Program-made: the position numbers and the translations under genes
Assembly: GCF_003334305.1 (NCBI RefSeq)
Contig: NZ_QOWS01000034.1
Direction: 5' to 3' (one strand)
Length of the DNA: 35,359 nucleotides
Source of the DNA: Escherichia coli
Lineage (GTDB): Bacteria; Pseudomonadota; Gammaproteobacteria; Enterobacterales; Enterobacteriaceae
Shown here: positions 23,565-25,387 of the stretch, piece by piece
Numbering within the stretch: the stretch's first letter is position 1
Layout: the number at the start of each line of letters is the position of its first letter
The notes under the pieces: generated by a model
Databases searched by the model: none
What the model was told of the DNA's origin: nothing
Seen by the model: the letters and a program-made list of their open reading frames with translations, nothing else

Positions 23565-24089
23565 TTATTCATCCTCTTTTTTCATTTCGATGCTGCTTTG
23601 ACGTACATGCACCAGCAGGCGGTAATGGTGGCCGGTTCCTTCCACCGTCTCGATTTGTTTCCATTCAGTGGCCTGGTCATCGGAGAAATAGGCCACGACA
23701 CCAATAAACTGCGTTTTCTCATCCAGCTTTACCGGCGGCAGGGTTTTGATGGTGTCCGGCAACAGGTTGAAATCCTGGTGGTCGATATAGTTTTTACCCA
23801 GCACATCCGGTAGCGGCGTACTGGCTATCTGGTCATAGTCGGCTGCCAGCAATTTTGAGTCGTCAGTCAGGTACACCAGTTGCACATCCACGGCGGCTGA
23901 TTCACCTTCCGCATTGGTATTGGTGTCCGGTTCGGTCAGCAGGGTGACGGTTATTTCCGAAGGTTGCTCCTTCAGGCTCCCGACCTGGATATCCGGGTTT
24001 TTGATCACCTCACTGATTTTTTTCGCCGTTTCGCAGCCGGTTAATATGACGCACATCAGCACGCAGGCCAGAAACGCCTTCCTGTTCAT
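23565..24089 (-). CDS. tssJ: T6SS outer-membrane lipoprotein TssJ
   Basis: 174-aa ORF with a lipobox (ILTGCET). Size and position typical of TssJ/SciN. Confidence 0.75.
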   Translation of the reverse strand: MNRKAFLACVLMCVILTGCETAKKISEVIKNPDIQVGSLKEQPSEITVTLLTEPDTNTNAEGESAAVDVQLVYLTDDSKLLAADYDQIASTPLPDVLGKNYIDHQDFNLLPDTIKTLPPVKLDEKTQFIGVVAYFSDDQATEWKQIETVEGTGHHYRLLVHVRQSSIEMKKEDE

Positions 24090-25387
24090 GCTTCCGGCTC
24101 CCGCTGTTTTTCACGAAGCACCCGGTCATAGACTTGGGCGTAGACCTCGTTAAACAGCATCTCAAACCCCTGCTGGCGATCGGAGGCCAGTTCTTCGTAA
24201 TAATGGCTGTACATTTGCCATGCTCCGGCATCATCCAGCGGCTGGCGCAGTTCATGGCTGCGGCGGTACTGCACAAAGCGGCGCAGCAGATTTTGTGGTG
24301 AGAAAGCATCCAGCAGGACACGAAGCGACTCCACAATCGCTGCCCGGTTAGCTTCTTCGTGGTGGCGGACATTGCGCAGGCTTTCACTGACGGCGGCGGG
24401 AGCCGCCAGATGTACCGGGCTTTTACCTTCGGCAAACATTACGTCGAGCGCGGTGGCGTAATCCATGTTCAGGCGCAGCGGGTTATCTTCCAGCGGGCGC
24501 AAATGTTTGTCTGAGAGGCTGTTACGCTGCTGCTGCAAATCGAGCAGACCTTTTATTGCGGCCTGTAACGTTCGTCCGGCCTCCTCCAGAAAATCATCCG
24601 CATCGTCGGAATTGCTCATGGTAAGCGAGCCGCCAAGACCGCGCAGTAAGGGGGTGACCGCAAGGTGGCGTTGCGCCATTTCTGCCGCAGAGACGTCGTC
24701 ATTACGATCGCCGGGGCTGGCATAAATGGGCGGCAGATCCATAAACGGAGTATTGATCCCCCCATTACTTGCCGGATCGGACAGCGGTGCCGATGGCCGG
24801 ACAGCCGCAATGCCTGAAAGCGGATCGCCCGTGGTAATCAGGCTTTCGGACTGAAGTGCCTGGAGTGGATCGGCAGAAAAACCGTTTACCACGGTGTCTG
24901 CAAGCTGGTGCCGGTGAGTCATTCCCGGATAGTGTGGCGTACCCTCCGTTGATAGCAGGGTATCCGTGAGCATATCGCGATTGGTAACGATGGTTTCGGG
25001 AGTGGCCATTTCCTCATCGTAATGGGGAATATCTCCCCGGTTCAGATGAACCCTCACCATCAGCCGTCCGATCTGGATCTCATCGCCCTGGCGCAACTGT
25101 ATTAGGTCTGATGTTGCTGTGACTTTTGCCTGATTCAGCCACAGTTGTGCCGTCTGCGGGCGCAGACAAAATGTGCCATCGTGCAGGATAACGGTAAAAG
25201 CCTGGGCCGGAATGCTCTGCTGACGATCCTGTACCGACCAGTGGCATTCGGGGCCATGGCCGACATTTCCCTGCTGTGTGAACAGACAGCGCGCCGCCCG
25301 TCCGCTTTCCAGCTCACTGCCGTTAATGACCTGCAATGAAAGCGTCTGTAGTTTCTCTTCCGGCATATTCTGCTCCGTGATTATCAT
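24086..25387 (-). CDS. tagH: T6SS-associated FHA-domain protein (TagH/Fha-like)
   Basis: 433-aa ORF. N-terminus has the FHA pattern (LSLQVINGSEL...GRAARCLF...H...Q...G...D...S.NGT-like), followed by a long low-complexity C-terminal region. Exact start uncertain. Confidence 0.7.
   Translation of the reverse strand: MIITEQNMPEEKLQTLSLQVINGSELESGRAARCLFTQQGNVGHGPECHWSVQDRQQSIPAQAFTVILHDGTFCLRPQTAQLWLNQAKVTATSDLIQLRQGDEIQIGRLMVRVHLNRGDIPHYDEEMATPETIVTNRDMLTDTLLSTEGTPHYPGMTHRHQLADTVVNGFSADPLQALQSESLITTGDPLSGIAAVRPSAPLSDPASNGGINTPFMDLPPIYASPGDRNDDVSAAEMAQRHLAVTPLLRGLGGSLTMSNSDDADDFLEEAGRTLQAAIKGLLDLQQQRNSLSDKHLRPLEDNPLRLNMDYATALDVMFAEGKSPVHLAAPAAVSESLRNVRHHEEANRAAIVESLRVLLDAFSPQNLLRRFVQYRRSHELRQPLDDAGAWQMYSHYYEELASDRQQGFEMLFNEVYAQVYDRVLREKQREPEA

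What the first reader, a model, noticed from the sequence alone, without database searches (positions are those of the whole stretch)
24086..25387. FHA-domain TagH-like protein without a visible cognate Ser/Thr kinase or phosphatase
FHA proteins in T6SS loci usually act with a PpkA/PppA threonine phosphorylation pathway. No kinase or phosphatase gene is recognisable among the T6SS genes in this window. The FHA protein may therefore act independently of phosphorylation, or be controlled by a kinase encoded elsewhere. Its C-terminal half is long and low-complexity (Ala/Leu/Pro/Ser-rich).
Basis: partly seen in the sequence, partly recalled or inferred. Interest (0 to 1): 0.38.

Follow-up and report, generated by a model that had tools for sequence, protein, structure and literature searches.

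The report
E. coli TagH scaffold, kinase-less T6SS
This gene is the already-annotated TagH (Fha) accessory protein of a common Escherichia coli type VI secretion island; it has no partner kinase, which has been reported for this kind of cluster since 2009, and its FHA domain has lost the residues that normally grip phosphothreonine.

Summary
The ORF is real. It is tagH, 100% identical to the RefSeq-annotated gene of E. coli HS and W, and present in 2248 of 5426 complete E. coli genomes. The likely start is ATG 25366 (426 aa), not 25387.

No Ser/Thr kinase or PP2C phosphatase lies in the window, nor in the whole island of E. coli HS. Kinase-less Fha in V. cholerae, E. coli O157 and Y. pestis is stated in the literature.

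What I add: all four canonical phosphothreonine-pocket positions are replaced in E. coli TagH (Arg→His37, Ser→Pro53, His→Ala56, Asn→Ala73). None of 80 enterobacterial and Aggregatibacter relatives keeps the Arg. The two Arg-keeping relatives with enough context both have PP2C plus a kinase. Five Arg-less ones have neither.

The claim of a low-complexity C-terminal half is wrong. A disordered linker of about 110 residues precedes a folded helical domain (PF20232), which is the most conserved part of the protein.

Most likely TagH is a phosphorylation-independent assembly scaffold, as shown for V. cholerae Fha in 2026. Already known; low interest.

The parts
24086..25366 (-). tagH (fha) coding sequence, 426 aa plus stop.
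   Evidence: ORF. TIGR03354 344 bits, full length. PGAP annotates the 426-aa form in E. coli HS. GGAG lies 7 nt upstream of ATG 25366. 100% identical in E. coli HS, W and others.
25037..25348 (-). N-terminal FHA-fold domain (residues 7-110)
25256..25258 (-). His37 codon, at the position of the canonical phosphate-binding Arg (Fha1 R32, A. tumefaciens Fha R30, Rad53 R70)
   Evidence: Alignments. Anchored on P0251, whose 'IGR...VSSLH...ESTNG' aligns to GarA, Rv0020c and Rad53 FHA1. Coordinates.
25199..25210 (-). Pro53 to Ala56, at the position of the canonical Ser-x-x-His (Fha1 S48)
25148..25153 (-). Thr72-Ala73, in place of the canonical Ser-Thr-Asn loop, which is one residue shorter here and has no Asn
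24689..25036 (-). Linker predicted to be disordered (residues about 111-226), rich in Pro/Ala/Thr/Asp/Ser
   Evidence: pLDDT <50 for residues 127-224. Composition. Lowest conservation in distant relatives, 26%.
24101..24688 (-). C-terminal helical domain (T6SS_FHA_C, PF20232; residues about 227-422)
24677..24679 (-). Met230 codon, an in-frame ATG just before the C-terminal domain. It sits in the same relative position (just upstream of the C-terminal domain, about 200 residues from the C-terminus) as the internal start M262 of V. cholerae Fha. No alignment to the V. cholerae protein was made.
   Evidence: Met in 56 of the 80 related loci, but no Shine-Dalgarno signal. V. cholerae data from PMC13389060.
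21465..22226 (-). tssL (DotU family), the likely membrane-complex partner of the TagH N-terminal domain
   Evidence: TIGR03349. The partnership is inferred from V. cholerae and A. tumefaciens (PMC13389060, PMC3953482).
28291..28704 (-). tssE, the likely baseplate partner of the TagH C-terminal part
   Evidence: TIGR03357. The partnership is inferred from V. cholerae (PMC13389060).
11125..34562 (.). T6SS cluster in which tagH sits. Minus strand: hcp, vasL/tagA-like, tssM, tssA, vasI, tssH, tssL, tssK, tssJ, tagH, tssG, tssF, tssE, tssC, tssB. Plus strand: hcp, vgrG, then the start of an Rhs gene.
   Evidence: NCBIfam. RefSeq annotation of E. coli HS. The same order is seen in 80 related loci.

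Best explanation
The gene is tagH (fha), the accessory scaffold protein of a V. cholerae-type T6SS cluster carried on the E. coli island next to the second tRNA-Asp gene.

Shown here:
- It has three parts: an N-terminal FHA-fold domain, a disordered linker of about 110 residues, and a conserved helical C-terminal domain (PF20232).
- Neither the window nor the complete island of a near-identical strain encodes a PpkA-type kinase, a PppA-type phosphatase or TagF.
- The four FHA positions that bind phosphothreonine in canonical domains are all replaced (His37, Pro53, Ala56, Ala73).
- The Arg is missing in every relative that shares this gene order.

Inferred:
- TagH works without threonine phosphorylation.
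- Its FHA domain serves as an ordinary protein-protein adaptor that docks on the cytoplasmic domain of TssL in the membrane complex.
- The C-terminal domain self-associates, forming condensates in V. cholerae, and contacts baseplate proteins such as TssE.
- Together these concentrate components and seed assembly of the machine.
- Control of the E. coli system would then lie elsewhere, for example in transcription, rather than in a kinase switch.
For: Identity: TIGR03354 at 344 bits over the full length. 100% identity to RefSeq tagH of E. coli HS and W, and present in 2248 of 5426 genomes. Conserved order tssG-tagH-tssJ-tssK-tssL-tssH in 80 of 80 related loci.

No kinase or phosphatase.

Degenerate pocket: the canonical pattern GR / SxxH / STN is seen in P0251, which aligns to GarA, Rv0020c and Rad53. 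E. coli has GH / PxxA / T-A. Of the 78 related loci whose sequence covers that column, 0 have Arg (two ORFs are truncated there). Only 3 of 88 cluster representatives have Arg.

Co-variation with kinases: Arg-class P0251 and P0255 have PP2C plus Pkinase right after tssM. Arg-less P0157, P0187, P0174, P0207 and P0193 have the E. coli-like layout and no kinase within the sequence available, up to 10 kb each side.

Literature:
- Kinase-less Fha clusters in V. cholerae, E. coli O157 and Y. pestis (PMC8993066; subgroup I in PMC2660368).
- V. cholerae TagH is required for Hcp secretion and is not detectably phosphorylated (PMC8993066).
- V. cholerae Fha is a scaffold whose C-domain drives phase separation, whose N-part binds TssLcyto and whose C-part binds TssE (PMC13389060).
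- The Arg and Ser are required where a kinase exists (PMC3953482).
Against: No experiment on the E. coli protein was found.

The mechanism is transferred from V. cholerae Fha, which was not aligned directly. Relatives in the same residue register (S38, K54) are about 35-37% identical to E. coli TagH.

In V. cholerae, alanine substitutions at the positions equivalent to the canonical Arg and Ser (S38, K54) reduce Hcp secretion (PMC8993066). So that loop surface still matters, and a non-canonical phosphate site cannot be excluded. E. coli has His37, His42 and Arg48 nearby.

Pocket loss is read from alignment and a predicted model, not from a binding assay.

The kinase correlation rests on 2 versus 5 well-annotated contexts, plus 80 closely related loci that are not independent of one another.

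My kinase and PP2C detection in those 80 loci was weak. The PP2C seeds missed the PphC control. It is backed mainly by the fact that core T6SS genes fill the flanks.
Confidence: 0.62

Rival explanations
1. TagH is still a phosphothreonine reader. Its FHA domain binds a phosphorylated T6SS component (TssL or another) through a non-canonical pocket, and the phosphate is added by a kinase encoded elsewhere in the genome, for example the core YegI kinase with the PphC phosphatase.
For: E. coli carries a Hanks-type kinase and PP2C pair, yegI-pphC (bioRxiv 10.1101/819920 and 10.1101/303594), in 5417 of 5426 genomes. In V. cholerae, substitutions at the pocket-equivalent positions S38 and K54 impair Hcp secretion, and the authors and a review propose an unidentified kinase (PMC8993066, PMC10482370). 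Basic residues (His37, His42, Arg48) remain near the loop.
Against: All four canonical contact residues are replaced, and the Asn loop is shortened. yegI-pphC is core and does not co-vary with tagH, which is in 2248 of 5426 genomes. No phosphorylation of V. cholerae TagH was detected (PMC8993066). The V. cholerae Fha N-part binds TssLcyto in a two-hybrid assay, and TssLcyto partitions into Fha droplets reconstituted in vitro (PMC13389060). The Arg-less state tracks the kinase-less gene layout.
Confidence: 0.15
2. As in Vibrio, the E. coli gene also makes a second, shorter protein from an internal start (Met230) that consists of the C-terminal domain only. The two isoforms share the work. This adds to the scaffold model rather than replacing it.
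For: Met230 lies just before the C-terminal domain, in the same relative position as V. cholerae M262 (PMC13389060). It is Met in 56 of 80 relatives although it sits at the edge of a poorly conserved linker.
Against: There is no Shine-Dalgarno-like sequence upstream in E. coli (-1.7 kcal/mol, against -5.8 for the annotated start). There is no enrichment across relatives (mean -1.75, against a background of -1.53). The paper shows conservation only within Vibrio.
Confidence: 0.15
3. TagH is a decaying, dispensable accessory gene in this E. coli system. Its FHA domain diverged because it is no longer used.
For: The FHA domain is less conserved than the C-domain (54% against 83% in the nearest clade) and falls below Pfam detection in close homologues. 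Many T6SSs work without any Fha (PMC13389060, discussion).
Against: The reading frame is intact and identical across many strains. The gene keeps its place in all 80 related loci. The FHA fold is confidently predicted with family-invariant residues G33, G36, W43, N78, D95 and G100. The V. cholerae orthologue is essential for secretion (PMC8993066, PMC13389060).
Confidence: 0.06

Closest known systems
V. cholerae Fha / TagH / VasC (VCA0112)
   Same: Both sit between tssG and tssJ in the same gene order (for relatives of that type). Both have an FHA-fold N-domain, a linker and a PF20232 C-domain. Neither has ppkA or pppA in the cluster (PMC8993066, PMC2660368). In both the canonical Arg is replaced: Ser38 in V. 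cholerae, His37 here.
   Different: Relatives in the V. cholerae residue register are about 35-37% identical. E. coli has also lost the His of SxxH, which most relatives keep (71 of 88). The E. coli cluster has no vasH sigma-54 activator between tssH and vasI. The internal ribosome-binding site that gives FhaS in Vibrio is not evident.
P. aeruginosa Fha1 and A. tumefaciens Fha, part of the threonine phosphorylation pathway (PpkA/PppA/TagF)
   Same: They belong to the same protein family (TIGR03354 / COG3456), with the same two-domain plan and the same general role as an assembly factor needed for Hcp secretion.
   Different: Those proteins keep the Arg and Ser (R32/S48; R30/S46), which are required for secretion (PMC3953482, PMC8993066). 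Their clusters encode PpkA and PppA, usually with TagF. Their gene order is fha-tssJ-tssK-tssL-tssM-pppA-ppkA. E. coli TagH lacks the residues, the enzymes and that layout.
Phosphorylation-independent FHA-fold domains of other secretion systems (T3SS YscD cytoplasmic domain; T7SS EssC N-terminal FHA domains)
   Different: There is no detectable sequence relationship or shared context. That those domains lack pThr-binding residues is my recollection and was not tested here.

Membership tests
T6SS-associated FHA protein TagH/Fha (TIGR03354, COG3456) | Full-length match to the family model above the curated cut-off | tested here: met
   344 bits against a cut-off of 120.25, residues 16-425 on model positions 1-420
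T6SS-associated FHA protein TagH/Fha (TIGR03354, COG3456) | C-terminal T6SS_FHA_C domain (PF20232) | tested here: met
   E=2.6e-41, model positions 1-179 of 180
T6SS-associated FHA protein TagH/Fha (TIGR03354, COG3456) | Encoded inside a T6SS core gene cluster | tested here: met
   Lies between tssG and tssJ, with all 13 core genes present in the window. The same order is seen in 80 related loci.
T6SS-associated FHA protein TagH/Fha (TIGR03354, COG3456) | Required for T6SS assembly and Hcp secretion | not testable with these tools
   Shown for V. cholerae, P. aeruginosa and A. tumefaciens homologues (PMC8993066, PMC3953482). No data found for E. coli.
Canonical phosphothreonine-binding FHA domain (PF00498) | FHA beta-sandwich fold | tested here: met
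Canonical phosphothreonine-binding FHA domain (PF00498) | Conserved pocket residues: Gly-Arg (beta3/4 loop), Ser-x-x-His (beta4/5 loop), Asn (beta6/7 loop) | tested here: not met
   Gly36 is kept. Arg is replaced by His37, Ser by Pro53, His by Ala56 and Asn by Ala73.
Canonical phosphothreonine-binding FHA domain (PF00498) | Significant sequence match to the Pfam model | tested here: inconclusive
   20.9 bits, E=5e-4. Close homologues list no PF00498 in the precomputed table. Some Arg-less relatives do.
Canonical phosphothreonine-binding FHA domain (PF00498) | Binds phosphothreonine peptides | not testable with these tools
   Needs ITC or pull-down with phosphorylated and unphosphorylated peptides
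T6SS threonine phosphorylation pathway (PpkA-PppA-Fha, with or without TagF) | Hanks-type kinase PpkA encoded in or next to the cluster | tested here: not met
   None in the window and none in the full island of E. coli HS
T6SS threonine phosphorylation pathway (PpkA-PppA-Fha, with or without TagF) | PP2C phosphatase PppA, and TagF, encoded in the cluster | tested here: not met
   No such product appears in the NCBIfam or PGAP annotation. The PP2C seed search was negative but of low sensitivity.
T6SS threonine phosphorylation pathway (PpkA-PppA-Fha, with or without TagF) | Phosphorylated Thr on Fha or TssL | not testable with these tools
   Needs phosphoproteomics

The most novel reading that the evidence does not exclude
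The whole TagH lineage that goes with the V. cholerae/E. coli gene order (tssG-tagH-tssJ-tssK-tssL-tssH) carries a pseudo-FHA domain that no longer reads phosphothreonine. It keeps the fold but has lost the Arg/Ser/Asn pocket, and it lacks PpkA/PppA. The idea that these proteins wait for an unidentified kinase, still offered in recent papers, would then be wrong. The S38/K54 mutant phenotypes in V. cholerae would reflect a phosphate-independent binding surface for TssL.
Probability: 0.55. Interest if true: 0.35.

Novelty: already known. Interest (0 to 1): 0.14.

Why it matters
It matters little for discovery. The gene is annotated, it is carried by about 40% of complete E. coli genomes, and the missing kinase is a documented trait of this class of T6SS.

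The useful by-product is a simple sequence rule. Arg/Ser/His/Asn present goes with a kinase-controlled cluster. Arg absent goes with a kinase-less cluster. The rule predicts which T6SSs are switched by threonine phosphorylation, and it argues against looking for a hidden kinase in E. coli and V. cholerae. It also warns that the label 'FHA domain' should not be read as 'phosphopeptide reader' here.

Tried and rejected
1. AF2 on the single sequence gave a useless model (pLDDT 37). I repeated it with a 32-sequence alignment.
2. A sequence search of the PDB with E. coli TagH found no FHA chain even at E=10. The anchor to solved FHA domains had to go through an Arg-keeping relative and through fold comparison.
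3. tblastn against plasmids gave only 20 records, too few for a survey.
4. The one genome-contig scan returned only the 80 closest relatives (Enterobacterales and Aggregatibacter). It shows lineage-wide loss of the Arg and conserved synteny, but it is not an independent test of the kinase correlation.
5. phmmer with two PpkA-like and two PppA-like seeds, plus PROSITE-style motifs, found nothing in the window or the 80 loci. Sensitivity was poor: YegI was barely found, PphC was missed, and one seed kinase fails the motif. The absence claim for the window therefore rests on the NCBIfam, Pfam and PGAP annotation.
6. Only the 10 largest of the 55 clusters of unlabelled flanking ORFs were run through NCBIfam. 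None is a kinase or phosphatase.
7. I tested whether the Vibrio 'gene-in-gene' internal start applies. Met230 is conserved, but there is no Shine-Dalgarno signal above background.
9. I could not obtain the V. cholerae, P. aeruginosa or A. tumefaciens Fha sequences themselves. Residue equivalences rely on published numbering (PMC8993066, PMC3953482), which matches my alignment (P0251 has R32 and S48; P0177 and P0186 have S38 and K54).
10. I considered yafD (2319-3119, 'endonuclease/exonuclease/phosphatase family') as a phosphatase candidate. I rejected it: it is a housekeeping gene outside the island and is not in a protein phosphatase family.
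Full report
**What is there**

The window is E. coli chromosome. It runs dkgB, yafC, yafD, yafE-like, mltD, gloB, yafS, rnhA, dnaQ and a tRNA-Asp at 8349-8425. A type VI secretion island follows.

Between 11125 and 30996 the minus strand carries hcp, a VasL/TagA-like gene, tssM, tssA, vasI, tssH (clpV), tssL, tssK, tssJ, the gene in question, tssG, tssF, tssE, tssC and tssB. The plus strand then carries a second hcp, vgrG and the start of an Rhs gene.

The ORF at 24086-25387 (minus strand, 433 aa) exists as described. [quoted passage not shown]

Its DNA is 100% identical to the gene that RefSeq names tagH in E. coli HS, W, KO11FL and others. A match is present in 2248 of 5426 complete E. 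coli genomes.

PGAP starts the gene at the second ATG (25366, 426 aa). That codon has GGAG 7 nt upstream, so it is the more likely start. I use 426-aa numbering below. The tagH stop overlaps the tssJ start (ATGA at 24086-24089).

**Is it an FHA protein?**

By sequence the answer is only marginal. Pfam FHA gives 20.9 bits, E=5e-4. Close homologues carry only PF20232 in the precomputed Pfam table. A PDB sequence search finds no FHA chain.

**Is the kinase or phosphatase really absent?**

Yes. Every large ORF has an NCBIfam assignment that is not a protein kinase or phosphatase. The three unnamed ORFs at the left end of the island have no NCBIfam match, and the two submitted to Pfam (8756-9541 and 10167-11096) have no match there either. 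A phmmer search with PpkA-like and PppA-like seeds, plus motif scans over all ORFs of at least 60 aa, found nothing. That screen had low sensitivity.

The window ends inside the Rhs gene, so I looked beyond it. E. coli HS has an identical tagH, and its island is 98.2% identical to the window. There the island continues Rhs core protein, dsORF, a broken ISAs1 transposase, and then the housekeeping gene yafV. The second refutation condition, a kinase and phosphatase pair just downstream, is therefore also not met.

E. coli does have a Hanks-type kinase and a PP2C phosphatase elsewhere: yegI and pphC (bioRxiv 10.1101/819920 and 10.1101/303594). That locus is in 5417 of 5426 genomes, with or without tagH. 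Nothing ties it to this system.

**The C-terminal half is not low-complexity**

Its composition entropy (3.94 bits) equals that of the rest of the protein. Residues 242-415 match PF20232 at E=2.6e-41. Residues 227-422 are predicted as a packed helical domain with pLDDT 85-95.

It is also the most conserved part of the protein. Identity to E. coli TagH is 83% in the nearest clade and 59% in more distant Enterobacterales. The FHA domain scores 54% and 41%. Only the linker (about 111-226) is predicted disordered (pLDDT <50) and is Pro/Ala/Thr/Ser-rich.

**The phosphothreonine pocket**

A search of 1.84 billion cluster representatives found 1738 relatives. I aligned the N-termini of the 88 full-length representatives among the best 150.

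Three of them (P0222, P0251, P0255) carry the canonical FHA signature Gly-Arg, Ser-x-x-His, Ser-Thr-Asn. P0251 aligns residue for residue with the solved pThr-binding domains of GarA, Rv0020c and Rad53 FHA1. Its Arg32 and Ser48 have the same numbers as the P. aeruginosa Fha1 residues R32 and S48. Those residues, like R30 and S46 of A. tumefaciens Fha, are the ones mutated to test pThr binding (PMC8993066, PMC3953482).

In the other 85 representatives the Arg column is Ser (60), Ala (11), Cys (5), His (2) or another residue.

| Canonical position | E. coli TagH |
|---|---|
| Arg | His37 |
| Ser (of Ser-x-x-His) | Pro53 |
| His (of Ser-x-x-His) | Ala56 |
| Ser-Thr-Asn loop | Thr72-Ala73, one residue shorter, no Asn |

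Two independent alignments agree on this mapping.

None of the 80 related genomic loci (Citrobacter, Enterobacter, Lelliottia, Buttiauxella, Rahnella, Yersinia, Serratia, Photorhabdus, Xenorhabdus, Proteus, Morganella, Providencia, Aggregatibacter) has the Arg. His marks the E. coli/Citrobacter/Enterobacter/Rahnella clade, and Ser marks most of the others.

Two representatives, P0177 and P0186, have Ser38 and Lys54 in exactly the register published for V. cholerae TagH. The residues described there as 'conserved phosphopeptide-binding residues' are in fact substitutions of the canonical Arg and Ser. The paper's own equivalence table says as much: Fha1 R32 corresponds to S38, and S48 to K54 (PMC8993066).

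**Does pocket loss track kinase loss?**

Gene neighbourhoods with Pfam labels gave the following.
- Both Arg-keeping proteins with enough context have the order fha-tssJ-tssK-tssL-tssM-PP2C-Pkinase.
- All five Arg-less proteins looked up have tssB-C-E-F-G-tagH-tssJ-K-L-clpV, followed where the contig allows by vasH, vasI, tssA and tssM. None has a kinase or PP2C within the sequence available, up to 10 kb each side.
- All 80 related loci share the E. coli order, with core genes filling the flanks.
- The ten largest groups of unlabelled flank ORFs are unrelated genes or have no match.

The sample is small, and the 80 loci are phylogenetically close. The pattern agrees with Boyer et al. 2009, who noted that subgroup I (the V. 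cholerae type) has Fha without the PpkA/PppA/TagF association (PMC2660368).

**How it most likely works**

For the V. cholerae homologue, which also lacks a kinase, the following is published.
- The protein is essential for Hcp secretion, and no phosphorylation was detected (PMC8993066).
- Its N-terminal part binds the cytoplasmic domain of TssL, in pull-downs, in a two-hybrid assay and by TssLcyto partitioning into droplets in vitro (PMC13389060).
- Its C-terminal part binds TssE (PMC13389060).
- The C-terminal domain drives liquid-liquid phase separation that is needed for efficient assembly (PMC13389060).

E. coli TagH has the same three-part anatomy and the same neighbours. I therefore infer the same role: a phosphorylation-independent scaffold that links the membrane complex to the baseplate and concentrates components.

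The anatomy, the context, the absence of enzymes and the pocket substitutions are shown here. The partners, the self-association and the independence from phosphate are inferred.

The main rival is a distant kinase acting with a non-canonical pocket. It remains possible because the pocket-equivalent positions matter in V. cholerae.

**The Vibrio 'gene-in-gene' isoform**

V. cholerae makes a short isoform from an internal start, M262. E. coli has Met230 just before the C-domain, and it is Met in 56 of 80 relatives. However, there is no Shine-Dalgarno-like sequence upstream. The value is -1.7 kcal/mol, against -5.8 for the annotated start. The relatives average -1.75, against a background of -1.53. 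There is no support for the isoform here, and no exclusion either.

**Comparison and verdict**

The protein is a member of the TagH/Fha family; every testable defining feature is met. It is not a member of the PpkA/PppA threonine phosphorylation pathway, because the enzymes are absent. It does not meet the residue definition of a canonical pThr-binding FHA domain, although it has the fold.

One nomenclature point remains open. A recent E. coli survey calls a locus with an FHA gene, two tssA genes, two tssD genes and vgrG-rhs 'T6SS-2 type' (PMC10711316). I did not verify which of the E. coli type labels applies to this island.

The finding is correct as an observation, apart from the C-terminal description. 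It describes a known, annotated gene and a known property of this class of cluster. Interest is low.

Noticed in passing
window 30237-30461 (minus strand): A 74-aa ORF between tssB and tssC resembles residues 50-102 of TssC itself (34% identity, E=2e-8). RefSeq annotates it as a hypothetical protein in E. coli HS. It may be a diverged relic of a second tssC N-terminus.
   Followed up: partly
window 25364-25387 (minus strand): There are two in-frame ATG starts for tagH. GGAG lies 7 nt upstream of the second (25366), which PGAP uses.
   Followed up: yes
window 24677-24679 (Met230 of TagH): An in-frame Met at the edge of the disordered linker is conserved in 56 of 80 relatives. It sits in the same relative position as the V. 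cholerae internal start M262, which gives the FhaS isoform (PMC13389060). No Shine-Dalgarno signal lies upstream.
   Followed up: partly
window 25238-25261 (TagH residues 36-43, GHGPECHW): In the E. coli/Citrobacter/Enterobacter clade, the loop that normally holds the phosphate-binding Arg reads G-H-x-x-x-C-[HRFY]-W, with His37 and Cys41 largely conserved. I did not examine whether this forms a new binding or metal site.
   Followed up: no
window 8756-9541 (+), 9678-10157 (-), 10167-11096 (-): Three genes at the left end of the island, between tRNA-Asp and hcp, have no NCBIfam match. The first and third also have no Pfam match. One is named ykfM in RefSeq. They could be an effector and immunity or adaptor set, but this is unknown.
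   Followed up: partly
window 125-201 and 8349-8425: There are two tRNA-Asp(GTC) genes. The T6SS island begins right after the second one, downstream of dnaQ, as expected for an island integrated at a tRNA gene.
   Followed up: no
window 24086-24089: The tagH stop codon and the tssJ start codon overlap (ATGA). tssG also ends only 3-24 nt before tagH. This suggests translational coupling within the operon.
   Followed up: no
L073:16609-17457 and 43 similar ORFs in other related loci: An ORF family of about 283 aa, located after tssH in Xenorhabdus, Photorhabdus and related loci, has no NCBIfam match and was not labelled by any window protein. It may be a diverged accessory gene or a spurious frame.
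   Followed up: no
literature: PMC8993066 compared with alignments: The V. cholerae TagH residues S38 and K54, described in that paper as conserved phosphopeptide-binding residues, occupy the positions of the canonical Arg and Ser but are not those residues. The mutant phenotypes reported there therefore do not show phosphopeptide binding.
   Followed up: partly
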